Positions 3,001-64,000 of a stretch of DNA of 64,000 nucleotides are shown piece by piece. Origin of the DNA: Octopus vulgaris (Eukaryota); NCBI GenBank assembly GCA_951406725.2, contig OX597816.1, positions 97,154,001-97,218,000 on the forward strand, read 5' to 3'. Within the stretch, counting starts at the first letter, position 1, and the number at the start of each line of letters is the position of its first letter. Under the pieces are notes generated by a model. It was not told the origin of the DNA, did not search any database, and saw only the letters and a program-made list of their open reading frames with translations. The translations under genes and the position numbers were made by a program.

Positions 3001-6000
3001 ACAATACTCATCAATAATTTGATACCATGTATACCCATCTATGTTCTGATACCAAGTATACTCATCTACAATCTCTTATCAACTATAATCATCTATAATC
3101 TGATACCATGTATACTCATCTACAATATAATACCAAGTATACTCATCTAGAATTAGATACCACGTATACTCATCAATAATTTGATACCATGTATACTCAT
3201 CTATATTCTGATACCAAGTATACTCATCTACAATCTGATACCAACTATACTCATCTATAATCTGATACCAAGTATACTCATCTACAATCTGATACCAAGT
3301 ATACTCAGGTAGAATTAGATACCACGTATAATCATCAATAATTTGATACAATGTATACTCATCTACATTCTGGTACCTAGTTTACTCATCTACAATCTCA
3401 TACCAAATATACTCATCTATAATGTGATACCAAGTATACTCATCTACAATCTGATACTAGTTTGCTTATCCACAATCTGATATCAAGTATACTTATCTAC
3501 AATCTGATACTAAGTATACTCATTTACAATTTGATACCAAGTATGCTCATCTAGAATTAGATACCAAGTATACTCATCAATAATTTGATACCATATATAC
3601 TCATCTTCATTCTAATACCAAGTATACTCATCTACAATCTGATACCATGTATAAACATCTACAATCTGATACCAAGTATACTCATCTATAATCTGATACC
3701 AAGTATACTCATCTACAATCAAATACCAAGTAATCACATCTAGAATTAGATACCACGTATACTCATCAATGATTTGATACCATGTATACTCACCTACATT
3801 CTGATACCAAGTTTACTCATCTACAATCTGATACCAACTATAATAATCTGTAATCTGATACCAAGTATACTCATCTATAAACTGATACCAAGTATACTCA
3901 TCTAGAATTAGATACCACGTATAATCATCAATAATTTGATACCATGTATACTCATCTACATTCTGGTTCCAAGTATACTCCTCTACAATATTATACCAAC
4001 TATACTCATCTATAATCTGATACCAAGTATACTGATCTACAATCTGATACCAAGTATACTCATCCACAATCTCATACCAAGTATACTTGGTATCAAATTG
4101 TAGATGCGTATACTTGGTATATGATATCAAGTATACTCATCAACAATTTGATACCGAGTATACTCATCTAGAATTAGATACGAAGTATACTCATCTATAT
4201 TTTGATACCATGTATACTCATCTACATTCTGATACCAAGTATTTTCATCTACAATCTGATACCGAGTATACTCATCTACAATCTGATGCCAAGTATACTC
4301 ATTTACAATCTGATACCAAGTATACTCATCTAGAATTAGATACCATTATACTCATCAATAATTTGATACTATGTATACTCATCTACATTCTAATACCAAG
4401 TATACTCATCTAAAATCTGATACCAACAATACTCATCAATAATTTGATACCATGTATACCCATCTATGTTCTGATACCAAGTATACTCATCTACAATCTC
4501 TTATCAACTATAATCATCTATAATCTGATACCATGTATACTCATCTACAATATAATACCAAGTATACTCATCTAGAATTATATACCACGTATACTCATCA
4601 ATAATTTGATACCATGTATACTCATCTATATTCTGATACCAAGTATACTCATCCATAATCTGATATCAAGTATACTTATCTATAATCTGATACTAAGTAT
4701 ACTCATTTACAATTTGATACCAAGTATACTCATCTAGAATTAGATACCAAGTATACTCATCTATAATTTAATACCACGTATACTCATCTACATTCTGATA
4801 CCAAGTATACTCATCTACAATCTGATACCAATTATACTCATCTACAATCTTATACCACGTATACTCATTAATAATTTGATACCATGTAAACTCATGTAAA
4901 TTCTGGTACTAAGTATACTCATCTACAATCTCATACCAACTATACCCATCTATAATCTGATACCAAGTATACTCATCTACAATCTGATTTCCTCATATCA
5001 CAATCTAATACCAAGTATACTCGTATACAATTTGATACGAAGTATACTCATCTAGAATTAGATACCAATTATACTCATCGATAATTTGATACCATGTATA
5101 CACATCTACAATCTGATACCAAGTATACTCATCCACAATCTGATACCAAGTATACGTGGTATCAAATTGTAGATGAGTATACTTGGTATATGATATCAAG
5201 TATACTCATCAACAATTTGATACCGAGTATACTCATCTAGAATTAGATACCAAGTATACTCATCTATATTTTGTTACCATGTATACTCATCTATATTCTG
5301 ATACCAAGTATTTTCATCTACAATCTGATACCGAGTATACTCATCTACAATCTGATGCCAAGTATACTCATTTACAATCTGATACCAAGTATACTCATCT
5401 AGAATTAGATACCAATATACTCATCAATAATTTGATACTATGTATACTCATCTACATTCTAATACCAAGTATACTCATCTAAAATCTGATACCAACAATA
5501 CTCATCAATAATTTGCTACCATGTATACCCATCTATGTTCTGATACCAAGTATACTCATCTACAATCTCTTATCAACTATAATCATCTATAATCTGATAC
5601 CATGTATACTCATCTACAATATAATACCAAGTATACTCATCTAGAATTCGATACCACGTATACACATCAATAATTTGATACCATGTATACTCATCTATAT
5701 TCTGATACCAAGTATACTCATCTACAATCTGATACCAACTATACTCATCTATAATCTGATACCAAGTATACTCATCTACAATCTGATACCAAGTATACTC
5801 AGGTAGAATTAGATACCACGTATAATCATCAATAATTTGATACAATGTATACTCATCTACATTCTGATACCTAGTTTACTCATCTACAATCTCATACCAA
5901 ATATACTCATCTATAATGTGATACCAAGTATACTCATCTACAATCTGATACTAGTTTGCTTATCCACAATCTGATATCAAGTATACTTATCTACAATCTG

Positions 6001-9000
6001 ATACTAAGTATACTCATTTACAATTTGATACCAAGTATGCTTATCTAGAATTAGATACTAAGTATACTCATCAATAATTTGATACCATATATACTCATCT
6101 ACATTCTAATACCAAGTATACTCATCTACAATCTGATACCATGTATAAACATCTACAATCTAATACCAAGTATACTCATCTATAATCTGATACCAAGTAT
6201 ACTCATCTACAATCAAATACCAAGTATACACATCTAGAATTAGATACCACGTATACTCATCAATGATTTGATACCATGTATACTCACCTACATTCTGATA
6301 CCAAGTATACTCATCTACAATCTGATACCAACTATAATAATCTGTAATCTGATACCAAGTATACTCATCTACAAACTGATACCAAGTATACTCATCTAGA
6401 ATTAGATACCACGTATAATCATCAATAATTTGATACCATGTATACTCATCTACATTCTGGTTCCAAGTATACTCCTCTACAATCTTATACCAACTATACT
6501 CATCTATAATCTGATACCAAGTATACTGATCTACAATCTGATACCAAGTATACTCATCCACAATCTCATACCAAGTATACTTGGTATCAAATTGTAGATG
6601 CGTATACTTGGTATATGATATCAAGTATACTCATCAACAATTTGATACCGAGTATACTCATCTAGAATTAGATACCAAGTATACTCATCTATATTTTGAT
6701 ACCATGTATACTCATCTACATTCTGATACCAAGTATTTTCATCTACAATCTGATACCGAGTATACTCATCTACAATCTGATGCCAAGTATACTCATTTAC
6801 AATCTGATACCAAGTATACTCATCTAGAATTAGATACCAATATACTCATCAATAATTTGATACTATGTATACTCATCTACATTCTAATACCAAGTATACT
6901 CATCTAAAATCTGATACCAACAATACTCATCAATAATTTGCTACCATGTATACCCATCTATGTTCTGATACCAAGTATACTCATCTACAATCTCTTATCA
7001 ACTATAATCATCTATAATCTGATACCATGTATACTCATCTACAATATAATACCAAGTATACTCATCTAGAATTAGATACCACGTATACTCATCAATAATT
7101 TGATACCATGTATACTCATCTATATTCTGATACCAAGTATACTCATCTACAATCTGATACCAACTATACTCATCTATAATCTGATACCAAGTATACTCAT
7201 CTACAATCTGATACCAAGTATACTCAGGTAGAATTAGATACCACGTATAATCATCAATAATTTGATACAATGTATACTCATCTACATTCTGATACCTAGT
7301 TTACTCATCTACAATCTCATACCAAATATACTCATCTATAATCTGTTACCAAGTATACTCATCTACAATCTGATACTAGTTTGCTTATCCACAATCTGAT
7401 ATCAAGTATACTTATCTACAATCTGATACTAAGTATACTCATTTACAATTTGATACCAAGTATACTCATCTAGAATTAGATACCAAGTATACTCATCTAT
7501 AATTTGATACCACGTATACTCATCTACATTCTGATACCAAGTATACTCATCTACAATCTGATACCAAGTATACTCATCTACAATCTTATACCACGTATAC
7601 TCATCAATAATTTGATACCATGTAAACTCATCTAAATTCTGGTACTAAGTATACTCATCTACAATCTCATACCAACTATACCCATCTATAATCTGATACC
7701 AAGTATACTCATATACAATCTGATTTACTCATATCACAATCTAATACCAAGTATACTCGTATACAATTTGATACCAAGTATACTCATCTAGAATTAGATA
7801 CCAATTATACTCATCGATAATTTGATACCATGTATACACATCTACATTCTGATACCAAGTATACTCATCTACAATCTGATACCAAGTATACTCATCTAGA
7901 AATAGATAACAAGAATACTCATCAATAATTTGATACCATGTATACTCATCTACATTCTGATCCCAAGTATACTCGTCTACAATCTGATTCCAAGTTTACT
8001 CATCCACAATCTGATACCAAGTATACTCATCTACAATCTGATACCAAGTATACTCATCTAGAACTAGATACCACGTATACTCATCAATAATTTGAAACCA
8101 TGTATTCTCATCTACATTCTGATACCAAGTATACACATCTACAATCTGATACCAAGTATACTCATCTATAATCTGATACCAAGTATATTCATCTACAATA
8201 TTATACCAAGTATACTCAATTAGAATTAGATACCACGTATACTCATCAATAATTTGATACTAGGTATACTCATCTACAATCTGATACGAAGTATACTCAT
8301 CTACAATCTCATACCAACATACTCATCTATAATCTGATACCAACTATACTCATCTAGAATCTGATACCAAGTATACTCATCTAGAATTAGATAGCACGTA
8401 TACTCATCAATAATTTGATACCATGTATACTCATCTACATTCTGATACCAAGTATACTCGTCTACAATCTGATTCCAAGTTTACTCATCCACAATCTGAT
8501 ACCAAGTATACTCATCTACAATCTGATACCAAGTATACTCATCTAGAATTAGATACCACGTATACTCATCAATAATTTGAATCCATGTATTCTCATCTAC
8601 ATTCTGATACCAAGTATACACATCTACAATCTGATACCAAGTATACTCATCTATAATCTGATACCAAGTATACTCATCTACAATATTATACCAAGTATAC
8701 ACATTTAGAATTAGATACCACGTATACTCATCAATAATTTGATACCAGGTGTACTCATCTACAATCTGATACGAAGTATACTCGTCTACAATCTCATACC
8801 AACATACTCATCTATAATCTGATACCAACTATACTCATCTAGAATATGATACCAAGTATACTCATCTAGAATTAGATAGCACGTATACTCATCAATAACT
8901 TGATACCATGTATACTCATCTACATTCTGATACCAAGTATAATCATCTACAATCTCATACTAACTATACTCATCTATTATCTGATACTTAGTATACTCAT

Positions 9001-9873
9001 CTACAATTTGATACCATGTATAAACATCTAGAATTAGATACCATGTGTACTCATCAAAAATTTGATAACATGTATACTCATCTACATTTGATACCAAGTA
9101 TACTCATCTACAATCTCATACCAGCTATACTCATCTATAATCTGATACCAAGTATATTCATCTACAATATGACACCAATAATACTCATCTAGAATTAGAT
9201 TCCAAGTATACTCATCAATAATTTGATACCATGTATACTCATCTACATTCTGATCCCAAGTATACTCATCTACAATCTGATACCAACTATACACTTCTAT
9301 AATCTGATACCAAGCATACTCATTTACAATCTGGTACCATGTATACTCATCTAGAATTAGATTCCAAGTATACTCATCAATAATTTGATACCATGTATAC
9401 TCATCTACATTCTGTTCCCAAGTATACTCATCTACAATCTGATACCAACTATACACTTCTATAATCTGATACCAAGTATACTCATTTACAATCTGGTACC
9501 TTGTATTCTCATCTAGAATTAGATACCACGTATACTCATCAATAATTTAATACCATGTATACTCATCTACATTCTGATACCAAGTATACTCATCTACAAT
9601 CTCATACCAACTATACTCATCTATAATCTGATACCAAGTCTACTTATCTACAATCTGATACCAACTTTACTCATCCACAATCTGATACCAATTATACTCA
9701 TCCACATTCTGATACCAAGTATACTCATCTACAATTTGATACCAAGTATACTCATCTAGAATTAGATACCAAGTATACTCATCTATAATTCGATACCATG
9801 TATACTCATCTACATTATGATACCAATTATACTCATGTAGAATTTGATACCAAGTATACTCATCTACAATCTG
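1..9873. repeat. 27-bp tandem satellite (consensus TCTGATACCAAGTATACTCATCTACAA) with higher-order structure; runs off the left edge
   Basis: Monomer visible continuously from 1 to ~9873. A marker inversion recurs at 523, 1592, 2661, 4086, 5155 and 6580 (spacings 1069, 1069, 1425, 1069, 1425). Confidence 0.97.
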
Positions 9874-9893
9874 TTAGAATATAAACATCTTAC

Positions 9894-9947
9894 TGCATTG
9901 AAACATAAGAAAGCCAGTATACTCAGCAGGATAACGATCGTGTCATT
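9894..9947 (-). CDS. Candidate isolated 54-nt phase-0 exon encoding a hydrophobic segment (NDTIVILLSILAFLCFNA); gene unknown
   Basis: Minus strand reads ttccttctgtactctactaattctctacag|AAT...GCA|gtaaga: polypyrimidine tract, CTAAT branch-like motif, CAG acceptor, GTAAG donor. Only one of three frames is open. Confidence 0.4.
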
Positions 9948-12779
9948 CTGTAGAGAATTAGTAGAGTACAGAAGGAACGCTTATTAAAGGATTCGACTAT
10001 AACACGGTAATACGACATTTCTGGATAACCTCTTGTTTTTTTTAAATTGCTATGTATTCTAAATATTTAATCTTTTTTAGCGATAGATTTGTTAACGTGC
10101 TACACAGTCCTTTTTGGTTTCTATGGTTTGTATACAGTCAAAGAAATCTAGAGTCTCTATCATCAAAGGATCCAATTAATCAAAATCCGACGTGTTAGAA
10201 AACTGCTTACAATTTTTTCCGTGGGAAAAGCTATTTGTGATGAATCAGCATTTAATCCATTTGAAATTATGTCTTTCAGCGTCTTTCATTAGTAGCAAGA
10301 TATGAATTAGTTAGCGAGCACTTCTAAAAGTATTTAATTTGATAGATTCTGAGAAAGTGGAGAATATTACATGTTTAACTGAAAGAAGGTAAACAGGCCC
10401 TCTGCATAGATTTGTCATGAGAAAAATCTAAAGTCTTAGTAGTTTAGTTACGAAGCTCCGCTTGTGTGTTAAAAGTAACCTTTTAAAATTTGATGCAGAT
10501 CTATGTTTCGCCGTAGACGTCTTTATATAGTGTAAGCGAGTGTAGAAGAAGGTCATTTAAAAACTACTAAACGCTGGTGTTCTACCATTATTACGTAACA
10601 CAATGGAAACTTTGGGCGCGCCAGTCAGGTTCGTATAAACAGGTTTATCACTCGCAACAGCAGATGGGGGAGTATCCAGTTGAAATGTGAGATAGTGGTC
10701 TTTGTGCTAGGAAAGATAGTGAGTAAGAAGGAGAAAGAGGCAGAGGGAGAGAGAGAGGGGTGGCTAGGTGGATATTATCAGGGCCAATTGTAAAGTGCTT
10801 GGTAAATATATATGAACACAAACCATACTCACGTACATACATATTGTTTCGTATAATATTAATGTCATAATGTATTACTAATATTCTTTCAAACTGCTAA
10901 AGCCCTCCTCTCCCCCTTAACTCTCAACGCATATATTTAATTAAATAATTGCCCTGATACGTTTTGAGAATATATATTGAAAATATTTATGGCAAAATTT
11001 TATTAGATTATCAATGCAATTTATAATATCGGATATCATATATTTTACAATATATTGAAACATAATTAGCCTCGTTGTTTATGAATATTGGGTTTATGCT
11101 CAAAATGGTAAATATAAAGACAGAAACAGGGTGAAATTTTTCACAAAATATTTGTATGTAGAGTTATTTCATGCATAAAACGATACTTTTTAAATGTAAT
11201 TATGCGCAACGCAGATCTCTAGAAATTCAATGATAAAATAGTGTTGCTTTGTTGAGAAAGGAAATATATTATATGAATAATTTCTCTACTTGAAACAGGT
11301 GAATTTAGGTAGAAAGAGTGCTGTTTGCTAGTTAGAAATCATGAATTTGTATATAATTAGTAAATATTCCAGTTGTAAATCTAATTAGGAGAGATTATTT
11401 CTAATTATACAAATATGCTTAAAATACAAACATATCAAATATACCTGAATGCCTAAACAAAATAATTGAAACGATTTGGAGGCCACCCTCCACCTTTGAT
11501 CCAAATTACTGGGAGAATAGCGCCATACCAGCCAAAATGGCAGCAAGCCATCGTCAAGGGAATGGTCCAGATGAAAATAATAGACGTCAAAAAGCAGAGA
11601 TCAGACTTTGAAGACGCAAAGAGCGACTGGTATTTCCTGCTCCCCGCCAACCTTCCCCTGCGATAAACACTCCACCATCCCTGGCCTGAACAGTCACCCC
11701 AGGCAGCGGTACCCTACTCACTCACCAACATGAAAAGGGCCATTCACTCGCTACAGATTACGAGTTGATGCCGAGGATGACGATCAAATATGCCTCTATA
11801 TCTATGCAAAACAATTGAAACAATTTGGTTTCTCCTCAAACTTTGCTTTTTCCTACAAATGTGCAGAAGCGAACTGATGTCAGTATTACTCAAGCGCCAT
11901 ATCGATTTCCCCAAACAAGCCAATCTTTTGTAAATCACTAAGTACATGCGTGACAACCACTTTATATAATATGATTAATATTCTCCCATTATTTTCATCA
12001 TAATTATCATTAAATACATTTTTTTTCATATATAATGATACCTTCCTCTAAAATATATAACTACTTCAGAGTTTGGTGTGTTCATAAGTACTAAATATAA
12101 CAGATAACAATTATCCAAGTTGTCAAATATCTAATAATTCTTCTCTAACCTTTCTTATAGCCTCTTCCACGCTCTCTGCAACAAGTAGGAAGAAGAATAA
12201 AATGTTTTCCAAGCAGAAACTGACGCAAGAACTTGCAAGAAATTTGATTCCGATAGAGCCATGCGCGGACCAGATGTTCAGAACACCAGATGTATTAATT
12301 TCTTATGACGACAGGATATGGTTTCAAATAAATTCGGCTGCTATATAGAGCCATGAACATCACATAGACTCAACCGTTTTGGTTCGTCAATGATTTTCGT
12401 TGTTGTTGTTGTTGCTGTTACAATATTGGTTAGTCCTGATCGGGAAGACATATTACCAAGGATATTCCAGTTCTAAACTTTCTTGTTCTATCCTTGGTTT
12501 TTATATTTTTATTTCCGATGATAGTTAAAAGTTTCCATCAATCAGAACTTACCTATTCCATCTAATTTATCCAGTTTATTGACAAGATACATAAATCATC
12601 TACTCACATGAAGGATTATGGACACAATTATTAACGGGTTAAACTTACACGCATATTTTCCTAATTATAGTTATATTATTTTGATTCTCTTATTTTGTTA
12701 TGGTCTTATGTCACTCACACATAACTACATCGGCATACAACCTACCATAAAGTCTATGCATAAAAGACTTTATACATAT

Positions 12780-49847: not shown

Positions 49848-50322
49848 GATATTTAATCAGGAAACGTATGCATGTCTCTCATTGTGAGTGTGGAATAGCA
49901 TCAAGAATCGACATACAAGTTGGAGGGAGGGTCAATCATTACACTTGTGAAATTGAGGCTTTTTTGAGGAGTTTCCACTTGGAAGAAATCGGCAAAACTG
50001 AAACAACGAGAAAAAGATAAGAAGAAAAGAAAAGAAGCCCTCAACGCCCCTGTTCTCAAAATAATATAGTCAACGTTCCACAAATAGTGGAAAATATTCT
50101 CAGTGAGATCATTCTTAGAATCTGATGATCATGTGCCCTTTCCTAAACATTACTATTTGCACCCCCATCTAAAGGACAATGAAAAAGGATATTTAATCCG
50201 GAAACGTTTGCAAGTCTCTCGTTGTGAGTGTGGAATAGCATCAAGAATCGAAATACATGCCGAGGGACACTTGTGAAATTGAGGCTTATTTGAGGACTTT
50301 CCACTTGGAAGAAATTGGCAAA
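49848..50322 (+). repeat. Two ~140-bp direct repeats 340 bp apart; possible Penelope pseudo-LTRs
   Basis: 49848-49996 and 50188-50322 share gatatttaatc.ggaaacgt.tgca.gtctctc.ttgtgagtgtggaatagcatcaagaatcga...tttccacttggaagaaat.ggcaaa. Confidence 0.7.
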
Positions 50323-50659
50323 TACATGGAAAAGATATAGGGTCCGTATAATGGAATGCTCTGATAAAATCCGAGTGTTAGCTGCTAATCCTGACGCGGA
50401 TTGTTTGGTCTTATTCATTTCTTGTGCTTTTAAATGATCTATTTTCAAATTATATTACGTCTTAATATATATTCATTTAATTTATTTTGTGTAAATTAAT
50501 GTAAAGCATATAATACACTTTAGTATATAGTAAAATGTCTTTCCTCTTTTATAAAACATTGTATATACCCTCATATTTTTGAAATACAGTTATATTGCCG
50601 TTTATGTTGTCTGTGAGAATGACCGCGGGTGGTAAAAGAGGAAGTAGTTAATATTATCA

Positions 50660-50660
50660 T

Positions 50661-50732
<72 letters not shown>
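50660..50732. repeat. (ACT)n microsatellite
   Basis: Read directly from the sequence. Confidence 0.95.
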
Positions 50733-52794
50733 AACAAATTTTTATGTCTTCGGATCGGTTAAAGAAGTCTTTCATGTTTTGTATTCCATAAATCCACAAT
50801 TCACTTTTCAGTAGCTATATGTCTCTTAGTTTTTATTCCACAGTTCTTCAACGCTTTATGTGAGTTGAGATTAATTTCACTCTCGGATAACTCTTATCAG
50901 TTTTGATAAGGCATCAATAACTATTTGTTTCTTCTTTTTTTTGTTTCAGCACAATGCACAATGCCATAGATTTGGAAAGAAAGAATAGACGTTATTGAAA
51001 TGCTATCGATCCAGCAGAAATAAAGGCAACTATCAACTCTGCAGGCATTTGAACTGAGAACATAACCGGACATAAGTAAAAAATCAAAAGCTACAAGTCT
51101 TTTGGGGAAACTGTATGAGGTCATACGGTTTACTAGAAATAGTAACCAAATCTACTATTAATCACAACTTGTTTTTTTAAAAAGAAACGACACATTTGAT
51201 GAAGTATTTGTGGATATATTTTGTCTGGGACAAACCAATAGCTACACCGTTAAAAGTTATCTTGTGAAGAACATTACTATTTCTGACTTTCACCATGGAG
51301 TAATGACTCAATGGTTAGTTCTTAACTCAATTCATAGTAACAAATGTATATGTTTGTAGATAGAACAGTCATCTGAATCGATTCTTTTATATTATTTCTT
51401 CTTATATTCTCACTGATGTTTTTGAAGAAATCTTATTGATTTAATATTTGTAGTAGGATCCTTTTCTTTATCTGCTTTGAACCCGTATTTTTATATATTA
51501 AAATCTAAGTGTATCTCTTTACTACTCATACTTTCTTTTGTATCGTGTTTTCGATATCTATGTACCACCATGAACTATATGACGGACTCTACCCACTGGT
51601 TCCACACAAAGCTGTCTCTACGTTTTCCCAGAATTTATCGAACATTACGTGTTGTTTGTTCTGTTCATTCCCTCTCTTACTTTCTAGCTTTTCATTCTCG
51701 ATGATAGATTTCCAGTACATGATATTTAATTGTTAATTCTAATCCTCATAATTTTTGTATTTGTCTTAGTAGAATTATGAAACATGATTATTTGTAGGAC
51801 TCCATGACTGTTGGGTAAATCTGTAAGGAATCATTTGACCAAGATATCGATTTATTTATTTCGGACTCGTGATCTGGTGGGAATGATCGCGGCACAATGA
51901 AATCTGCTAAAAACACTCGTAGGCTAATGATACTCTCCCACTTAGAGATTATTCAACCTTTTCCTAGCTGTGGATATAACTTACCACACCTATCCTTTAA
52001 TTGATTTGGGTTAATATGTTACAATGCCTTCTGGATTTTCTCCTTTTTAGTAACAATATAGACAGTAATTTTTACAGTTATAATGAATTATTTAATGTGA
52101 AAATTTTCCTATACTGTTTTTAGTTACAATCGAATATGTCCCAAATACTGACTCGAAGTTTCATGAAACATGTAGTATCATATCACATGGTTGATTCGGT
52201 AGATTTTAGCCCTTACTTTCAAACTTGTGGCCATGTGGCAATGTTAAAAATTATCATTATTAACAATCACTTATTCAGCTCTTAAACAATGTACAATCTC
52301 AACTGACCACTTCATCATTATGTCGTATATTTTCTTCCCTCTCCGTATTTTCACAAGTATTAAAAAGTGAGACTCGCATATATCCTTGCTATGGCCTCTT
52401 TTTTTATTGTTCTCTCCACCACTCTTATCTCTCTTATTTCAAGCATATTCTACTCATCTATATCACAATATCTTTGATTTAGTTCTCTTACATTTTGCCA
52501 AATAACACAGTTATCTTTCGTCTTTGAAGTGTAGTTTAAGGTCATCTAAGGACATTTACTGTTCTACAGCTTCGAAGTTTAGAGAGATGATAATCCCCCT
52601 CCTCCTTAAGATAATCAAGTAATCTCATTTGATATTAAGTTGAAGACACTGTATTTATCTCAATAAATTTTATCCAGTTATGGATAACAATAATTTTCAT
52701 ATTTCCATAATAGAATAAATAGGAATCATGTAATATATTTCAATTGCCGTCTTGCGTTTTAGTGCGATCATTTTTTCGGGAGCAATTCGTAAAT

Positions 52795-52953
52795 AAGCTG
52801 ATTACAACTACCCCAGTGTTCAACTGGTACTTATTTCATCGATCTCAAAAGGATGAATGGTAAAGTCGACCCCGGCAGCACTTGAACTCAAAATGTAAAG
52901 TCGGAAGAAATACCACTAAACACTTTGTCCGGTACAGTAATGATTCGCCGCCT
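52795..52953 (-). mobile_element. SINE family B (Nin-domain-like core)
   Basis: Minus strand ttttgagttcaagtgctgccggggtcgactttaccattcatccttttgagatcgatgaaataagtaccagttgaacactggg. Confidence 0.7.
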
Positions 52954-55199
52954 CTAGCATCATAGAAATATTGTAATCAACTTGCAATCTCACGTTCTAC
53001 ATTAAACTAAGTGCCTCATTCAATACAGATGATACCACACTACACGCGTTTGTAACCTTCCATGAACCACGCGTCATCGACCAAGAAACTTGCATTGGAT
53101 CTATGATAGGAAATCTCAATAATATTCTTTAAATGGGCCATATCAAAAATTTATGCTTCAACAACATGCAGTCAAAACCACTCTATCATCGAGAAACAAT
53201 ATTGTACTTCGTGATCTCTAGTCAAAGATAAAATTAAACTAAAACCTTCAAATCAAGACAAATACAAAGTTTCCCAAATTTTGATGGTCTCTCATAGCGA
53301 TCACTTATACACATGGCAAACACTGCATCTCCAAGGACTATCGTTGCTCTTTAGAGCCAGGTACTACTACAGCTCCTATCTCTCTATGAAGCTTATGTGA
53401 GTCCTACGTCTGCAGCTGCTGTTAGCCCGCATACACTAAAATGTTTTGCTTAATGGCATAAAGTCACTCACCTCACAATTTACTGTAGGCCAAATTAACA
53501 ATTACATCGATCTTACCGACCTCAAAAAGTTTTCAAAGCCACGTTATAAACACATGTATATATCTCCGCATTGCAAACCTTTAGTGACGTTATGTTTAGT
53601 TTGATGTAAGACATGTTAAGATTTACCAAACTAATATTATAATACACACTAGCTTACCCAATTGTGAAGAAAAATAATTTATGCAGCTATGAGTTATTAC
53701 TTTCAAGGCAAATGCAATAGATTAAGTGACATAAAAACAAGATATAAGTCTCAACTATATCCTGAAAACTAGGATTCCTATTTAGATTAACATTACAAAA
53801 TCAGCCTTAACATAATACATACCCATATAATTCAGAAATGTAACTCAGATCTTGGAATAGCTGAAAGTCTAACCTAGCAAGCATAAAATAATCACCTCTT
53901 GATGATTTGAAACGATTAAGTTACCACCATGCTGCAGTTATTAACTTAAATTAATCTTACTTCTCTTCACCCGTTTTTCAAGAATCCTGAGTGCTGTCGA
54001 CTTCACCGACAAAAGAATACAAAAGGAATTAATCATCTATATATATTTCACTGTAATTTATATGTAGCAATATAAATTTTCCCAAAACGTAAAAATAATT
54101 CCAAGGGAATGGATTCTTTTGTACGAGGTTCGAAGAGAATTTGAAATCAGCTCTGCAAACTAACATTAATAAAGTTCTCCTTCTTCTCCCCACTCTCTCT
54201 CCTTCTCTCTACTCTCAGGTATTGCGATGTTGACCTGTGAAGTACTTTAAATGTTTGAATCAAGGAAACATAGCTGTGATCCGATAACCGGAAACGAACC
54301 ACATATTTTAAGCTTCGTTGTGGCTAACTATTACTTCACTCATCTGCCACTCCGCAATTGATTAATTTGATTAAAGAGCATTCACACTATTTGATAACAT
54401 ATGTGCGCAGAAAACGCAGAGACAGCTTTAATGATGGGTGAGAACAATGTTGGCTTCTTCCGGAAGTCTATTTTCTTAATTCATCTGTTGCTGTTATTTG
54501 TTACAGTTAATCACAATTGAAATTGCATATGGCAAGAAATGTTCTTGGAGAAAATGAAAGAGTCAGTAATTAGTGGTGATTATTGAACAGCGAAAGTAAT
54601 TCCATTATGAATTATGAGGAGAGAAACAAAGAACTCAATTTGAAAGCAGTAGCTGGTAAAACCTGAAGTTATAATTCGTTTAACTTCATTCAGTGAGGAA
54701 ATATCGAACTTCCTTATCCAACTGGACATTCATTAGCTCCACATTAATTATAAAATTTTCACTCTTTGCAAATATTATATTACCGGCGTATAAAAATTAA
54801 TTACGCCAAAATAAAATGGTGATGAATTAAGTCATAAAATAGTTATAAATATAATTTTATAGCTGACTTCAAGAGTTAGCTTTTAGCCAACTTTCTTGCT
54901 AATTACTGGATTTGCTTTGCAACAGAGAATTTTGGAATTTGGGTGTTCACCGCCATATTGGATATTCAGAAAGCCTAACGATAAAAGGTAATGATACAAT
55001 AATATTTTTAAAAGGAATCAGAAAATAGAATAAACATCAAAACATATTTATGTACATTTATGGAGCTAATGGATATAAAAAAAGCAGAAAATATGAGTAT
55101 TTATAAGAAACATCTGCTGATTATGGTTATGCAATATCTAAGGAGTAATTTTTACAAAAATATTCTTTCCAAAGACCCCGGGTTGTATTACAAAAATAT

Positions 55200-55740
55200 A
55201 AATATCTCAACCCAAATCAATATCTGCTGCCCAGGCTATAATCTATACTCAAAAGTCTCTCCAAGAGACTTCGTATGTGTCTCCAAGAGACTTCATGGCT
55301 TTGTATGTGTAGATTCAACTCCTTACTTTGCTTATCAAGTCGCCTGGGTATGAGCATTAAAGGCTTCGAGTTACTCTTGCTTAAAAGCTTGCACATCAAA
55401 ACTAACAATACATCTAATTCCACCACTTCTATACAAAATCATCCAACGACCAGGGGATTCTTGGCCAAACTTCTCGGTGCACGTGAAATATCTATCTTAC
55501 ACCCATCCTCCCAAGGTCAACGTTCACAGCGACTGCAATAACCACAGCTTCTCTTGCCTCTCACGCCTACAGGCCTTGCCTAAGCTTTACAAAGCTCAAG
55601 CAAGTTCTGTAATGGAGTAATATTTCTATGTCATATTGCTTCTAGAATTACAAGCATTATGTTCATCTCATGGAAATAAAGGTCATTCAGCTGATTGACC
55701 TGAAGTAGTTCACCAAAAAACTCCATTTCTGGACCACAGA
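55200..55740 (+). mobile_element. Highly decayed APE-type LINE remnant
   Basis: KLYKAQASSVME* resembles the RT C-terminal LYK..RP.MEY motif; otherwise fragmentary. Confidence 0.3.
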
Positions 55741-55751
55741 CTTGCCGAGTT

Positions 55752-55815
<64 letters not shown>

Positions 55816-55845
55816 TACCACCACCACCACCACCACCACCACCAT
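55752..55845. repeat. (CTA)n-(CCA)n microsatellite
   Basis: Read directly from the sequence. Confidence 0.93.
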
Positions 55846-56633
55846 CCTCTCTGCTTAAACTAGTGGTTAATGTAGAGACAACTTAGAATTCTCTTTAATA
55901 TTTCCAATGTAATATATATTTATTAATGTATTATAAACATTCTAGGCTTACCGTTGTACCAGGCATTACAAAACCACTATTGCTCAGAAATTTAGAATTA
56001 ATCATGCCGACTGTTTATTTTATTTTAAAAATAAACGGTCAGCATGAATCTTTACTGAACAAATCCATCTAACAAGTTCGGCCAGCTCCCATTATGTATC
56101 ACTATGCAAAAATATCAGTAACACAAACACAAGTTAAATAGAAATGGAGTCAATCTAAGCTCTACGTTTAATAGCAAAGAATTCATTTTGAAATATGGTG
56201 AGTAAGTAATCCTCTGATTTATCCAAAACTGAATACCGAAAGAAAAAAAAATGCATCCAGCGTAGCAAGAGACATTTTAAAAACCAACTAGAAAGGAAAA
56301 TATGCAAACATAATAAAAGAAAATACTAATAAATGCAGCCCTGTTCCACCCGAACTAAAACAAAACACATCGCAAACATGGATCATAACAGAAGAGAAAA
56401 TATCGACAACACAATACACTCAGTAAGATAATAAAGAAAGGATTGATTAGAGACACCCATGACATAACACACCTAATAAATGTAGGAAAATAACGAATAG
56501 TGCCAAGTAAATGCGTGCACTGACTGAAGAGATTTTAAAATGAAATGAAACAAAAGTTTTAAGAGAAAACTTGCACTTGTTGAAAATAGTGTAAAACTTT
56601 AACGCCTAGTAATAAATTATATAACGAAAAAGA

Positions 56634-56710
<77 letters not shown>

Positions 56711-56719
56711 CAAACCAGC

Positions 56720-57720
56720 TGTTAAATAGAAATATAGAGCAAATATATGAAATACTCATAAATGTCTTAAAAGAATTAGTGTAATGTTAAATATTGTGTA
56801 GTAATTCGAAGAAGCAGGTGTCGAAATAAACCAGAAAACCTGAAACACATGTTATCTGCAAACACAACATTCGAAAAGGGGCAAATCACAGGAAAAATAA
56901 GCGAGAGCATAAACAAGGATACAGAATGTGACACTTAATGAAATCAAAATTACATCAAACGTTGTAAAGTCAAGACGAATTGCATCTTAAAAATTACGAA
57001 AGCGATATTAATTCAGTTAGTGAAAGCAAAAGTTGAAGGAATATAGAGATTTGAATAACAGATCAAACAATTTGAACAAAATAAATGTTTCGAAAAAAAA
57101 TAATGAAACCTTTACAGGGAATTAAACTACAAAAACAATACAAGTAGAGGATCGATCGTTTAAAAAACAAGTAAAAGTAAGTTTGAGAAATGTTTGGGAT
57201 TTAGGATAGCCTCATAAAAACAACTGAACCACCCAGTAAAACAAAAAAATATAAAAATCATGTGCATCACAAGGATGGAATGATATCACAGCGGAAAACA
57301 TAATGGAAGGTTTAATAGGAAAAGAAAATTAACTCGAAAATCTTTTACAGTCTGTAACACTTTATAGCTGTGATATCAGTATGGAGTTTGGGCTTGACAA
57401 ATGCTGCGAAACTTGTTTCAAATGAGGCAAGCTGATCAACTCAGTAACCATTGACAATGAAATCATTTAAACATTAAACAAACTGAAAAAAAAAGCGTAT
57501 AAATATCTGAAGATCAACGAGGCTTAACGAATTCCTCACGTTAGAATGCAGGAACAAATTCAAAAGGAAAATACTGATCGGACTACGAGGATCCTAAAAA
57601 GTGAGCTCAGCTCTAAAATGATATCGAAAACAAATAACACACTATTCGTCCCCGAGAGTAAGCTGTAGTTTCATAGGGGTAAACTAGATTATGTGAAGGA
57701 TAAAAAGAAAACGAAGAGCA
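56720..57720 (+). mobile_element. Decayed Dong/R4-type LINE fragment
   Basis: DISMEFGLDKCCETCFK*GKL at ~57372-57435 and YKYLKINE at ~57498; A-rich strand bias. Confidence 0.7.
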
Positions 57721-58643
57721 AAAGCTTAACACGTGTGTCGCTTGTAAGAATAAAGGAAAATCCCTTTCACAAAGTTATAGTCAGAGTAGTGACTTAACTT
57801 TTCAAGGACGCAAAGCACGCTCGAACAAAAAGTTCCGGATCATGACAAAAATCAACTTGTTCTACTAAATTTATAAATGATCAAGGATATTCAGGAGAAA
57901 AGTTATTCCAATAACAGTACTAGTCGAACTGTTTCGTCAACCTGCGCACATTTCGGAGAGGTTTGGTTGCTGATAGCTCCAATGTGGACAAGTAGTACAC
58001 TTGTAACATTGAGAGTCTAGCACAATAATTGTCGTCTTTGATCAGAAATATCTCAGGGAACTGTTACTCAGACTGAACCCATCATCATGCAGAATCCATC
58101 TGGATCATCTAAGATAGCCTCAAATAATCCTCCCTAGAATGCAACATTTGATTTTCCACCGAACTCACGCATCAACCAGTACAGGGGATTGACGATATGA
58201 CAACATTCCAGGCACTGAAGACAGAACTTTAGTTCAAGCTTTACTCAGGACTGCAATTTTGTCAAAGAAATGAGTTACAAGAGAGCATATCACACAAATG
58301 GTGACTACTCCAATTCTCCACGTATTAGTCCACGAATGCCTGAAGATATTTAAGTCATCACATGTACAGGTGCATCACCAGTCACTGTATTCTGAGACAC
58401 TCTTGGAATAAGCATTTGAAGCAGATAAACTTTTTGAACAGCGGAACACGTCTTTTCCACGAAAAGCAAAAGAATATAAGTTCTAATAGAAGCAGATATT
58501 TCACTGGAAAAAGCAAAACAACCAAGTGCGAAAGTAAACACAGAAGTGCCTAATGATAAATACCCAGTTCTATATTTAAGAGATGAGGAACTTTGTACAT
58601 TATTTACATTTCACGGATATGCGTCCTCATCTTTTTTGTTGTT

Positions 58644-58689
58644 AACACAACGTTTCGGCTGATATACCCTCCAACCTTCATCAGGTGTC
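58644..58689 (-). ncRNA. Minimal type I hammerhead ribozyme motif
   Basis: GACAC CUGAUGA A GGUUG-loop-CAGCC GAAA C GUU GUGUU: stem I GACAC/GUGUU, stem II 5 bp, palindromic AACGUU at stem III. Confidence 0.75.
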
Positions 58690-58916
58690 TTGGGGAATTT
58701 CGAACCTAGGTTCTCATTCCTAAGAGTCTCTACATCTACGCAGGAAAGTTAGATGGTTTGAAAGACGAGCTAGTTTTTGATGGAGTTTCTCTATATGTCT
58801 CCATTGAAGTCTAATGTCTGCTCCGTACTGATTAGATAATAAAGTTGTATATTTAAGAGATGAGGAATTATGTACATTATTTACATTTGACGGATATTTG
58901 TCCTCATTTTGTTGTT

Positions 58917-58962
58917 AACACAACGTTTCGGCTGATATACCCTCCCGCCTTCATCAGATGTC
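58917..58962 (-). ncRNA. Minimal type I hammerhead ribozyme motif (copy 2)
   Basis: GACAU CUGAUGA A GGCGG-loop-CAGCC GAAA C GUU GUGUU; one mismatch in stem II. Confidence 0.7.
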
Positions 58963-59014
58963 TTGGGGAAATTTCGAAACTGGGCTCTCATTTCCAGGTT
59001 CGAAATTTTCTAAT

Positions 59015-59060
59015 GACACCTGATGAAGGCTGGAGGGTATATCAGCCGAAACGTTGCGTT
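59015..59060 (+). ncRNA. Minimal type I hammerhead ribozyme motif (copy 3, inverted)
   Basis: GACAC CUGAUGA A GGCUG-loop-CAGCC GAAA C GUU GCGUU; perfect stem II, one mismatch in stem I. Confidence 0.7.
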
Positions 59061-60395
59061 AACAATAAACAAGATGAGGACAAATATCTGTCAAATGTAA
59101 ATAATGTAGATAAATACCCAGTTGTGGAGTTTATTTGACCCAGAAATGCAACACTGTCAAAGACAATCTGTGGACCAGGATCCCTCATACATCATTAACT
59201 CATGTTTATCAACAAGGAATTTCTACAGATGTTGCAACCTCACTGCATTTTTGCACATAACGAGTTGTAGCATCCGCAATAACCAGCACAGAATGTGTTA
59301 GCAGCTGATGGGTTTTCTTACAAGAAGCAGCCCTAACATTCCTTAAGAAAGATTGATGGAGTAATAATAAAATTTAGTAACAACAACAAAATTTTCAGAA
59401 GTAATGTTTTTTTTTGCTGATGTTATTTAAAGTAGTGAATAAAAACACTTTAGAGGGCCGAACAAACACATGATATATATATATATATATATATATATTT
59501 ACTAATGTCTCAGTATAGACTGGATTTAGATGTTGCCTTTCAGCTTTTACGAATAGTATAAAATGAATATATGGTGTCAATTTAATTGACTATGCTTGAT
59601 ACCCACGCTTGCCTGGCTTTTGGCCTAAGGGAAAAAACATTATTATTGCTGTAGTACTTAGACAAGTAACGAATTGTTTCGCTTCACAACAACTTGCAGC
59701 TCTATGTGCTTTGAGTATGTGCAATATTTTCTTTTGTTTTTGCATCATATTCTGTTACATGGGAATGACATTTATACTATAAACAAAACCCCTCCACCCC
59801 TTATTTTAGCTATCTCTATATGTATGTACATACAGTACCTACATACATATGTACATACATACGTACATACATACATGCATATGCACATACATAGAAGCAT
59901 GCAGGCATACATTCATATATATATTCATACATACATATATATAGATAGAAATATAGATATTCACGTATACTATACTTGCACACACATGCACACACGCGCG
60001 TGCGCACACACACACCAGCCATGCACAGGCACGCACGCTAGCTATTTCCAAGTGACACATACACGTTTAATTCAGAATCGTGCTACTGTTATGAAGAATA
60101 GTAGGTATTGTTTCGGTAATTCTCATGATAATAGAATTTCTAGCCTTTACCAAAATATGAATAATAACCAACGCTAACTTAAGTTGGGAATTTTAAAGAA
60201 ATTGCATTAAATTACGTTAGAAACAGCAAGCTTTTTACAACAGACATACAAATGTCTTCGTATGGCAGCCATATTGTTAAATCTCTCTGACTTGAACAAA
60301 AAAACTTCGTTTGATTTGTATAACAATGTACATAATATATGCAGATGTGTGTGTATTTGCATGTGTGTGTATGTTTGTGTTTATATATGTATATG

Positions 60396-60464
<69 letters not shown>

Positions 60465-60924
60465 TTACACGCACACATATATGCGCATATACACATAAGT
60501 AACTGCAGTTAAACACACGTATATGAATAACTAAGCTTACAACAGTTTATTTTTTTGTGTTGCATCTGTAAACAAGCGGTTGAATTGTAGTGGAGGACAT
60601 GTATATGTGTACACACAATTTATAACTTCCTACCTATCTGCACATACACATGCACACACAAACAAATATTTGCATTAAAAAGTTTACGTGTGTGTGTGTT
60701 TATAGACCCACATATATGTAGATACACTATATAAATATAGGTACGATTGCAGGTACGCATATTTGCATGTATATGTGTATACATGTGTGTATGTGTGTGT
60801 ACATATGTGTATACTTGTATGTATGTCTGTATATATGGTTACACATCATATACACATTAATCCGAATTTTATGGTAATATTCTGTCAATAGTTTACAATA
60901 AATGAATTTATTATCACTCCTTTC

Positions 60925-60993
<69 letters not shown>
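60925..60993. repeat. (TA)n microsatellite
   Basis: Read directly from the sequence. Confidence 0.93.
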
Positions 60994-60994
<1 letters not shown>

Positions 60995-61048
60995 TACGTT
61001 CTTTACAGAATATACCAGAATATGTGTGTGTGTCTATATATATGAAAT

Positions 61049-61091
<43 letters not shown>

Positions 61092-62643
61092 CGGTGAGAG
61101 ATTGTGCGTGTTATGTGTATATAAAAATATATTTGTGCATATATATATATAGAGAGAGAGAGGGGGATATAAAGTTGTGTCATATATATATGTATATTAA
61201 TACAAGCATCCATTTGTTTATATGTGTGTGTGATTGCGTATGCGTTTTGCGTGTGTCTTTGTGTACGGAACTTCTGTTTGATAGTTACCATTTGCTTGCT
61301 TCTTGTCTTATTTATTTATTGTTCTTTTTTTTGTAGATAATAACAATCATTGAATGAAAAGAAATGAATGACTTAGAGATAGAGCATCTATTTTGAAGGA
61401 AAATATAAAGCGTCGACTGATAAATGTTACTATGGCAAGACTATATAATCAATCTGCTGGACATGACACTGGTGAGAGACGATTGGCCAACTGGAAAATG
61501 TGTTAGGTCGAAATGAAAGGCTGAGAACAGCAGTTGATAACACGACCCAGTGAAACTTTGTATATTTCCTTTTCATTTAAATATATTTTCAGTGTTCTCT
61601 TTGATCTTATTCAGTCATTTCACAAGACTGACGACCCGCTGGGGAGAAGAAAGAGAGAGAAATAGTGAGAGATAGGGGGAGAGTGGAGAAGTAGTTGAGG
61701 TAGAAGGAGATTCGGTGAATCGCCTAGATGATTGGTGGAGAGATCAATGCATGTATGTGAGTACGAACGTACGTTTGTCTGTGTGTATGTATGTATGTAT
61801 GATTGTATGTGTATATGTATGTATGTGTTTATGTATGCATCTATGTATGTATCTATGTATGTCTGTATAGTGTGGCATACAGAAAAGGGATACAGATATA
61901 TTCGAAATACACGGAAAACGTAGTGACAAATAAACAACTCAAACATTCATATTTCATACACGCATAGATAAATGCATACCACACATACACACACTCTGTC
62001 TCTCTCTCTCACACACACGCACAGAAACACACATATTTAAAGAAAAATAGAAGAGAGAATAACCGATAGATATTAAGTTGAAAATTAAAAAGAAAAAATG
62101 ATAAATGGAAAGATAAAAATAAATAGATTGATATATTGATAAATAGATTCATATGCTGATGTATATAGTTAGGTTGAGATGAACAGAGAGTGAGTGGGTG
62201 AAAGGAAGAAAGGAAAAGTGAGAAGAAATTCTCGTATATGAGGTATGAGGACATAAAAGCAGCAGGCAGTAAATTAGAGAGGCAATATTATTGAGAAAGA
62301 GACAAGAGAAAATATTAATAGTGAGATATATTCAATACTTCAAGAGAAAAATGAAAGAAGATATCTAAAACAAAGAGCAAAATAAGACAGAGGGATAAAT
62401 GTATAAAATCAAAACAGATACGCAGATAGTTATAATGTTTGTGTGAGTGTGTGTGTGTATGTGTATGCATATAGAAGTAATTTATTATGTGCATTTATAT
62501 ACACACCATATGTGCATGTGTGTATGTATGTTCTTGTGTGTGTGTACGGGTGTGTCTGTGTGTGAATAATGGATACAAATATACATAAATACACGCAACG
62601 ATATAGCTCGCTAGATACTGAAGCAGACATACATTTTGATAGA

Positions 62644-62676
<33 letters not shown>

Positions 62677-62724
62677 CAAAGTAGGCACACACATATATAT
62701 ATATATATACATATAGACATACAA

Positions 62725-62797
<73 letters not shown>

Positions 62798-63038
62798 CAT
62801 ACACACATATAATTATCAAAGTTGGGTGATAAGTCCAGGTAGATATAATGTAAGCCTCAGAAGTGGACCGAAGTACATATAATATAACCAACAATTAGAC
62901 TTTTTCTTAATATATGATGTACACAGGTCCAGAGAATGTAAAACAAGGTTAACAATGGAAAAAAAGGTATATTAAATATCTATTTCTTTTTATATCTATA
63001 AAATCCATAGAATATAGACATTAACAAATAAATAAAAC

Positions 63039-63169
63039 ATCCTACATATGTTTCAGCTGATTTACAAAGAGTACATCCATTTATAATTTGATAATTAGAT
63101 AATTAACTAATTAAATCATTAAATAATTAATAAATACAATCTATTTAGTAAAACAGCTTCATCAGGAAT
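63039..63169 (-). ncRNA. Type I hammerhead motif with a ~95-nt insertion in loop II
   Basis: AUUC CUGAUGA AGCUG...CAGCU GAAA C AUAU GUA GGAU: stem I AUUC/GGAU, stem II AGCUG/CAGCU, palindromic ACAUAUGU at stem III. Confidence 0.65.
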
Positions 63170-63345
63170 TTAAGAGAAAGTTCCTAATTACACCATTTGA
63201 AATTGCCATGTAGGTAAATATAAACAACGCAAATGACTATATATATATATATAGTGAGAATTTACAAAAAAACAACAAAAGACGAAGACGGGTGTGTAAA
63301 CAACAAACAGATGTATTAGTTTAACGCTCGGGAAGTGAGAAAGTA

Positions 63346-63380
63346 TTTTACGTTTCAAGCCTACGCTCTTCGACAGAGAA
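63346..63380 (-). ncRNA. Hammerhead-like motif with variant core (CUGUCGA)
   Basis: CUGUCGA A GAGC GUAG GCUU GAAA C GUA; A6 is replaced by U and stem I is weak. Confidence 0.4.
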
Positions 63381-63426
63381 ATAAACAGGGAGAGAAGATA
63401 GAGAAAGGTTCAGTGGCTAGCGACCT

Positions 63427-63429
<3 letters not shown>

Positions 63430-63501
<72 letters not shown>
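63430..63501. repeat. (TA)n microsatellite
   Basis: Read directly from the sequence. Confidence 0.95.
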
Positions 63502-63504
<3 letters not shown>

Positions 63505-63716
63505 GTAAAATAGAAAGATGAATAATCTTGTTGCAGATTAATCAAAAGTTTAACCGATACCTTGGTAGCAAAAATCACGGCAGAAGAAAGCACGGTTGGA
63601 GATAAAACCTTTTGGTGTTGCAACCGTGCGTTGGTGCGGATAATTGAATTTTAGTATTATTAGTGAATTGAAGAAATGGAGTTGAACGAAGATTGAACAG
63701 AATTCCTTTTATTGCA

Positions 63717-63796
63717 TTCTACACATGTTTCAAAAGCCACAATTTTCCAAATTCTGATTAAATAAGGATCCCATATTGTGGCTTTCTCTTCAGGAA
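63717..63796 (-). ncRNA. Type I hammerhead motif with a long stem II
   Basis: UUC CUGAAGA GAAAGCCACAAU...AUUGUGGCUUUU GAAA C AUGU GUA GAA: 12-bp stem II, 3-bp stem I, palindromic ACAUGU. Confidence 0.7.
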
Positions 63797-64000
63797 AAAA
63801 ATATGAATTCCGTTGGCAGAACAAAACAGAACAGAGGCGCAGCAAAGCAATTTGAACGAGGCGGCTCTTTAAGAGCCCATGAGTTCACCCATGGGCTCTT
63901 AAAGAGCCGCCTCGTTCAAATTGCTTTGCTGCGCCTCTGTTCTGTTTTGTTCTGCCAACGGAATTCATATTTTTTTCCTGAAGAGAAAGCCACAATATGG
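63771..64000. repeat. Perfect inverted repeat, arms at least 111 bp, 8-bp spacer, truncated by the window end
   Basis: 63771-63881 is the exact reverse complement of 63890-64000; spacer AGTTCACC. Confidence 0.95.

What the first reader, a model, noticed from the sequence alone, without database searches (positions are those of the whole stretch)
58555..59123. TSD-bounded 539-bp cassette with three hammerhead ribozymes on both strands
Seen: an exact 15-bp TSD, two tandem minus-strand units and one inverted unit, each with CUGAUGA/GAAA cores, pairing stems I and II, and a palindromic AACGUU in place of stem III. The spacer translates LVFDGVSLYVSI, weakly like the Penelope RT motif FDV.SL(Y/F)T.IP. 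Established: Penelope-like elements and retrozymes carry minimal hammerheads that can cleave as dimers, and tandem copies can release unit-length RNAs that may circularise. Inference: a single insertion of a small ribozyme-processed retroelement. The two minus cleavage sites are 273 nt apart, predicting a discrete RNA, and the inverted copy adds a hairpin.
Basis: partly seen in the sequence, partly recalled or inferred. Interest (0 to 1): 0.72.

Follow-up and report, generated by a model that had tools for sequence, protein, structure and literature searches.

The report
Gutted Penelope retrotransposon with three hammerheads
This is a likely old, gutted copy of a very common Penelope-type jumping gene whose three end repeats each carry a small RNA motif predicted to cut itself; the copy is ordinary, but about one in nine sister copies lacks three bases at the predicted cut, likely a scar of cutting during past jumps.

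Summary
The anatomy is confirmed: an exact 15-bp flanking repeat, two minus-strand and one inverted minimal hammerhead, predicted cuts 273 nt apart. The interpretation needs correcting. The spacer is not an RT motif on the plus strand. On the minus strand it is the N-terminus of a Penelope-like (PLE) ORF (26/48 identical to an 847-aa PLE-type protein), and sister copies continue it into a reverse transcriptase. The cassette has the published PLE layout: two direct pseudo-LTRs, one inverted, a tail at one end, a TSD, with most of the ORF missing. The family has thousands of copies, but this 273-nt junction occurs once, so it is not a spreading retrozyme. It lacks the family's 5' head, is about 6-7% decayed, and its left junction is shared with a relative whose flank differs by 10.5%. 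The family is more interesting than the locus: 321 copies lack 3 nt at the predicted cut (2,568 intact; nearby slippage controls 27 and 67), on both subfamily lineages and often in only one arm of an insertion. This is likely a scar of cleavage in vivo. The scan noted such scars earlier in other genomes. Cleavage is untested.

The parts
58555..58569 (.). Left copy of the target-site duplication; its last 5 bp also match the family's tail end (true TSD 10-15 bp)
58570..58723 (-). Downstream direct pseudo-LTR (unit 1), 5'-truncated, ending in the tailed 3' end
58570..58595 (-). PLE 'tail': 26-31 nt extension present at this end only
   Evidence: (table 7)
58644..58689 (-). Minimal type I hammerhead 1; predicted cut after 58649; core intact, one extra G-U wobble in stem II
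58723..58724 (-). Junction joining the ORF start to the next pseudo-LTR; most of the ORF is missing here; this exact junction occurs once in G000
58723..58914 (-). Open 64-aa stretch = N-terminus of the PLE ORF (residues 16-63 align to P0001 52-99)
58843..58993 (-). Upstream direct pseudo-LTR (unit 2), 5'-truncated, running on into the ORF
58917..58962 (-). Minimal hammerhead 2; predicted cut after 58922; core intact, G.A mismatch in stem II
58994..59108 (+). Inverted, 5'-truncated pseudo-LTR, joined head-to-head to unit 2, ending at the tail-less 3' end
59015..59060 (+). Minimal hammerhead 3; predicted cut after 59055; core intact, A.C mismatch in stem I
59109..59123 (.). Right copy of the target-site duplication

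Best explanation
The cassette is a decayed, internally deleted copy of a high-copy Penelope-like retrotransposon family, made of two direct pseudo-LTRs, the first codons of the ORF and one inverted pseudo-LTR, and it was likely written into the genome in one event by the family's own RT-endonuclease. Shown: each pseudo-LTR holds the hammerhead motif, the spacer is ORF N-terminus, both outer ends are element 3' ends, one with the tail and one without. Inferred: the enzyme nicked both target strands 10-15 bp apart and primed cDNA on each at the two internal start sites of the RNA; the left cDNA ran through hammerhead 1, stopped about 74 nt upstream of the cut and jumped to about 198 nt downstream of the cut on the same or another RNA (or a longer copy later lost its middle); the two cDNAs were joined head-to-head. 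The three hammerheads are passengers of the three pseudo-LTRs. In the parent RNA they would cut after GUU as a dimer through ACGU, probably with protein help. This copy has no 5' head and is probably inert.
For: Spacer: 26/48 identity, E 2e-15, to residues 52-99 of P0001, an 847-aa RT protein; sister copies continue the same frame (L019, L030) and relatives of that frame carry RVT_1 (L046) and a C-terminal part 53% identical to P0001 527-846 (L053). Copy number: 8,330 candidates; 2,568 exact matches of a 34-nt hammerhead stretch. Layout: in 29 loci sampled on the hammerhead, 16 have outward-facing arms, 15 of 16 have one tailed and one tail-less end, 12 of 16 have a flanking repeat of 8-13 bp (controls at most 6). 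Same layout published for PLEs (PMC3846280, PMC8557442, passages); two internal RT start sites make the tail (PMC11167929). Unique junction: 1 of 6 matches, the other 5 are a different junction on one contig. Age: 7-8 differences per 113-115 nt from the family majority; left junction also in two runs of organism E with 104-105 differences in about 990 nt of flank.
Against: No empty site was seen in the 8 runs laid, so the TSD rests on the duplication alone. No intact full-length ORF of this family was found; the parent is pieced together by comparing broken copies. No Pfam GIY-YIG match for L053; the endonuclease is called from likeness to P0001 and a motif I know from memory. All three cores are intact while only 34 of 89 unselected copies are, which is mildly unusual for a dead copy. 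Template jump versus later deletion is not resolved (1-nt overlap at the junction).
Confidence: 0.88

Rival explanations
1. The 273-nt unit is a non-autonomous retrozyme: both minus hammerheads cut, the monomer circularises, and the PLE enzyme copies it more than once round.
For: Two complete cores 273 nt apart. The unit keeps the ORF start that a related PLE protein needs on its RNA (first 172 nt of the ORF, PMC11167929). A similar unit of about 280 nt occurs 5 times on contig C29 with a shared junction, twice in tandem in L008. Animal retrozymes are proposed to derive from pLTRs (bioRxiv 10.64898/2026.07.22.740005).
Against: Junction unique in G000 (exact search, so mutated copies could be missed). 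0 of 29 hammerhead-sampled loci hold the spacer. No 5' head. Hammerhead stems have probability at most 0.04 in the folded tandem or cassette RNA. Old and decayed. Only 1 of 9 tested frog retrozyme dimers cleaved.
Confidence: 0.07
2. The arrangement was built stepwise at DNA level (an old PLE copy, a second insertion beside it, or local duplication and inversion) and the 15-bp repeat is not a TSD.
For: PLEs tend to insert in or beside older copies (PMC6765202). The left repeat partly resembles the element's own continuation. No empty site seen.
Against: The right repeat is not element sequence yet equals the left one exactly; all three arms are equally decayed and carry the same lineage markers; the one-tailed, one-tail-less, TSD-flanked pattern is the family rule.
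Confidence: 0.05

Closest known systems
EN+ Penelope-like elements with pLTR, inverted pLTR, tail and TSD (PMC3846280 and PMC8557442, passages read; Poseidon PAc of PMC11167929, main text read)
   Same: Two direct pLTRs plus an adjacent inverted 5'-truncated pLTR, a roughly 30-nt tail at one end, a short TSD, pLTR overlapping the ORF start, hammerhead inside the ORF's 5' end; internally deleted derivatives are described.
   Different: Here nearly the whole ORF is gone. The family's full pLTR starts with a tRNA-like head that this copy lacks. The tailed junction overlaps the target by 5 nt, whereas PAc primed without homology in vitro.
Minimal type I hammerheads of metazoan PLEs (PMC4209133, parts 1-2 of 4 read; dimer cleavage as summarised in PMC6765202)
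   Same: CUGAUGA and GAAA cores, bulged base before stem II, G10.1-C11.1 pair, 5-bp stem I, palindrome in place of helix III; opposite-strand pairs 100-700 bp apart were already reported.
   Different: New sequence family; cut site GUU; no bench test. Within this family there is almost no stem covariation. A 3-nt deletion over the cut in about 11% of copies was not found in print.
Metazoan non-LTR retrozymes (PMC7229834, listing and passages; bioRxiv 10.64898/2026.07.22.740005, main text read)
   Same: Short head-to-tail unit with a type I hammerhead in each repeat, unit length in the reported range, pLTR origin.
   Different: Only one hammerhead-to-hammerhead interval, ORF-derived spacer, no second copy of the unit, inverted arm, no known RNA.

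Membership tests
EN+ Penelope-like element (deleted copy) | pLTRs in direct and inverted orientation at the ends | tested here: met
EN+ Penelope-like element (deleted copy) | 30-40 nt class 'tail' at one end only | tested here: met
   26-31 nt here; 15 of 16 sister pairs show the same asymmetry; contig loose ends cluster at both sites
EN+ Penelope-like element (deleted copy) | Single ORF with PLE-type reverse transcriptase, linked to this pLTR | tested here: met
   Window holds the N-terminus; sister copies continue into RT
EN+ Penelope-like element (deleted copy) | C-terminal GIY-YIG endonuclease | tested here: inconclusive
   L053 C-terminus 53% identical to P0001 with a YSIPCSCG motif (recalled as PLE GIY-YIG); no Pfam hit
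EN+ Penelope-like element (deleted copy) | Target-site duplication shown by an empty site | tested here: inconclusive
   Exact duplication present; no empty allele in 8 runs laid
Penelope/Poseidon clade | RT phylogeny | not tested
   No tree was built; the clade name rests on domain order and recall
Minimal type I hammerhead | Conserved core, bulge, G10.1-C11.1, stems I and II, palindromic 15.1-16.1 | tested here: met
   one mismatch each in units 2 and 3
Minimal type I hammerhead | Covariation in stems | tested here: inconclusive
   89 copies of one family: 4 cells with a pair-keeping double change over 11 pairs, otherwise one-sided decay; the free position N7 varies in 21 of 89, 19 of them U to A. 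No DNA of a distant family obtained
Minimal type I hammerhead | Self-cleavage (as dimer or with protein) | not testable with these tools
   Only indirect genomic scars
Non-LTR retrozyme | Monomer repeated as a family of dispersed or tandem copies | tested here: not met
   Junction found once; 0 of 29 sampled loci
Non-LTR retrozyme | Two consecutive complete hammerheads | tested here: met
Non-LTR retrozyme | Unit-length linear or circular RNA in cells | not testable with these tools
   Needs raw RNA reads or bench work

The most novel reading that the evidence does not exclude
This PLE family's hammerhead cut its RNA in vivo during transposition, and the genome records it: reverse transcriptase reaching the 5' end of the downstream product jumped onto the upstream product through a 2-nt GU overlap and lost three bases (about 11% of copies), or stopped there (5' ends piled at +1 to +4). 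That gives indirect in vivo evidence for a step that published work could show only weakly in vitro, and a countable readout of cleavage per insertion. The window's own three copies carry no scar.
Probability: 0.55. Interest if true: 0.6.

Novelty: new member of a known kind. Interest (0 to 1): 0.3.

Why it matters
The locus itself is an ordinary relic of a known class and shows how a retrozyme-like tandem can arise once from a PLE without becoming a family. The family matters more. Whether PLE hammerheads cut in cells is open: the discovery paper had no in vivo evidence (PMC4209133) and the PAc study found cleavage dispensable in vitro and no RNA-seq reads ending at the cut (PMC11167929). A deletion confined to the cut site, on both subfamily lineages and often in one arm only, makes that question testable by counting genomic copies and by a simple RT assay.

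Tried and rejected
Plus-strand RT remnant: rejected. Rfam: no hammerhead match in the region. Homolog search with the 64-aa peptide alone: 0 of 20 candidates passed; the 212-aa sister N-terminus gave 1 of 344. Empty site: none in 8 runs; run X9 covered only the far left flank. No RNA holder listed; this is no evidence on expression, and no RNA run was laid. Other hammerhead families for covariation: a looser pattern gave 116 matches (control 21), most of the 100 listed being this same family; metagenome scan with P0001 gave no relative. tRNA identity of the family's 5' head: ARAGORN 0 of 6 loci, Rfam none; it rests on A/B-box-like motifs read by eye. No long coding frame near the locus in 50000-64000. 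Deletion as a single-origin subfamily marker: not supported, though 6 insertions have it in both arms and it is weakly tied to two positions (p 0.002, 0.02). A repeat-annotation paper, looked up on a guess at the animal group, does not mention hammerheads (PMC13282606, passages). The dimer-cleavage paper (Lunse et al.) was not held. No supplements were read; PAc figure S2 and the alignments of PMC4209133 could bear on whether scars were seen before.

Full report
Observation. The sequence holds an exact 15-bp direct repeat at 58555-58569 and 59109-59123, two minus-strand units at spacing 273-277 and an inverted unit at 58994-59108. A repeat of 15 or more arose in 8 of 3000 random position pairs of the window. 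Each unit has GACA(C/U)-CUGAUGA-A-stem II-GAAACGUU-stem I. Predicted cuts follow 58922 and 58649 on the minus strand and 59055 on the plus strand. Unit 2 has a G.A mismatch in stem II and the inverted unit an A.C mismatch in stem I. By the usual numbering only ACGU of the palindrome can form the intermolecular helix III, since A14 and U17 are core bases (established knowledge). Rfam returned no hammerhead family, as is usual for minimal motifs.

The spacer. On the minus strand 58723-58914 is an open 64-aa stretch. It aligns to residues 52-99 of P0001 (26/48 identical, E 2e-15), an 847-aa protein with RVT_1 found with a sister copy's N-terminus. The plus-strand peptide does not align. Sister copies L019 and L030 carry the same pLTR and continue this frame for about 200 aa. 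Related copies hold the RT (L046, RVT_1 E 5.5e-10) and a C-terminal region 53% identical to P0001 (L053). The frame also runs through the hammerhead, and P0001 keeps TPDDG and PKRCV over the two core strands; in PAc too the ORF starts inside the hammerhead.

The family. G000 gives 8,330 candidates for the cassette, of which 40 were scored, 1,378 exact matches of a 42-nt core stretch and 2,780 candidates for an ORF piece. I took the first 30 core matches (29 distinct loci) as a sample unbiased for the spacer. None holds the spacer. Sixteen have outward-facing arms; 15 of the 16 have one end at +82 to +90 from the cut and the other at +47 to +59, and 12 of 16 have a flanking repeat of 8-13 bp against controls of at most 6. 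The window follows this rule. Contigs from four runs break at the same two groups of sites (table 7). This is the layout described for PLEs: two direct pLTRs, an adjacent inverted one, a 31-bp tail at one end, a 9-bp TSD, and derivatives with internal deletions (PMC3846280, passages; PMC8557442, passages). The two ends match the two internal RT start sites of PAc (PMC11167929). The last 5 bp of the left repeat equal the family's commonest tail end, so the TSD is 10-15 bp.

Is the 273-nt unit a family? An exact junction search with a 0-25 nt gap gave 6 matches: the window itself and five copies of a longer junction on contig C29 (control 1). Other short tandems among the best hits have varied junctions (that set is biased towards my query). 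Full pLTRs start about 200 nt upstream of the cut with a tRNA-like head and an (AAT/AAC)n run; the window's arms start only 62-74 nt upstream, so they lack it. Folded as RNA, the inverted arm pairs with unit 2 in a long hairpin and hammerhead stems have probability at most 0.04 (equilibrium folding, which may understate co-transcriptional folding).

Age. The three arms differ from the family majority at 7/115, 8/113 and 8/115 positions; the mean of 89 unselected copies is 6.6%. Left-flank contigs run into the element in 4 of 4 runs and right-flank contigs in 3 of 4. In two runs of organism E, whose flank differs at 104-105 of about 990 positions, the contig also runs 21 nt into the element and ends. 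No empty site was seen. The insertion is likely old and fixed.

Covariation. Across 89 copies not selected on the hammerhead, 4 cells over 11 pairs show a pair-keeping double change; the rest is one-sided decay, mostly at CpG. The only frequent non-CpG change in the core is U to A at the free position N7 (19 of 89). This is what neutral decay from one or two masters gives, so it neither supports nor refutes the fold. No distant family was obtained.

Scars at the cut (family level). Fifteen of those 89 copies lack 3 nt across the predicted cut (my notebook says 14, a miscount). Genome-wide exact counts are 321 deleted against 2,568 intact. Two neighbouring slippage products with equal or longer repeat homology are rarer: 27 for the 2-nt loss and 67 for the in-frame CAA loss; the patterns are 31-34 nt, so the counts are only roughly comparable. 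Three lineage markers are linked to each other (N7 versus +38: 129/8/18/26), yet the deletion is unlinked to them (p 0.73, 0.84) and only weakly tied to two other positions (p 0.002, 0.02). The two arms of one insertion share N7 in 67 of 72 pairs, but among pairs with a deletion 17 are discordant and 6 concordant (15 and 6 loci, two loci counted twice, and loci L124-L146 were chosen for having a deletion). 5' ends fall at +1 to +4 in 8 of 69 truncated copies of the discovery set and 3 of 20 in a later set (p 0.006 and 0.044 against a uniform 4%; the window was chosen after seeing the first set). My reading (inference): RT reaching the 5' end of the downstream product stops, or jumps to the upstream product through a GU overlap and drops three bases. 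Against it: several 5' ends sit at palindromes or microhomologies that favour fold-back or deletion anyway; some deletions are inherited; slippage after insertion is not excluded; in-frame deletions could be favoured in source copies. Most copies pass the site intact, in line with cleavage being dispensable in vitro. Three full-text searches found no report of such scars, within a library that lacks most subscription papers. I reached this reading before looking it up; earlier notes of this scan report similar scars in other genomes and the tRNA-like head in this one, unreviewed.

Papers seen. PMC4209133 parts 1-2 of 4; PMC11167929 parts 1-2 of 4; bioRxiv 10.64898/2026.07.22.740005 parts 1-3 of 5; PMC6765202 passages and the second part of section 11; passages only of PMC3846280, PMC8557442, PMC7229834, PMC4918200 and PMC13282606. 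No supplements. The clade name Penelope/Poseidon and the GIY-YIG motif call are recalled, not tested.

Verdict. A decayed, internally deleted PLE insertion of textbook layout, not a separate ribozyme-processed element. New member of a known kind; interest 0.3, most of it from the family-level scar signal.

Noticed in passing
Family-wide in G000; examples L083, L076, L138: 3-nt deletion across the predicted hammerhead cut in 321 copies versus 2,568 intact; present on both lineages and often in one arm of an insertion only.
   Followed up: yes
L171, L186, L140, L173, L181: Copies whose 5' end lies at +1 to +4 of the predicted cut; in L171 and L186 both arms do.
   Followed up: partly
L020 1773-1900 (minus), L046, L066, L053: The full pLTR begins with a tRNA-like head (A- and B-box-like motifs) and an (AAT/AAC)n run, about 30 nt after the ORF stop of the upstream copy; most genomic copies are short, SINE-like head-hammerhead-tail pieces. 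ARAGORN and Rfam do not call it a tRNA.
   Followed up: partly
L214 (G000:C2:2732500-2739500): Array of 9 near-identical units of 209-222 nt (pLTR with tail); 7 carry the cut-site deletion, so the array likely grew by local duplication and not by hammerhead processing.
   Followed up: partly
L003, L004, L005, L007, L008, L123 on contig C29: A roughly 280-nt hammerhead-to-hammerhead unit with a shared junction, tandem in L008; a better candidate for a small non-autonomous subfamily than the window's unit.
   Followed up: partly
P0001 residues 18-33 versus L019: A distant PLE-type protein keeps the residues that overlie both hammerhead core strands while the stem II codons differ; its DNA would give the missing covariation test.
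   Followed up: no
L035 2-2257: A 752-aa open frame of an unrelated non-LTR (RTE-like by recall) reverse transcriptase beside a family copy.
   Followed up: no
window 1-10000: Strong constant GC skew of about -0.46 over the first 10 kb, probably a long satellite.
   Followed up: no
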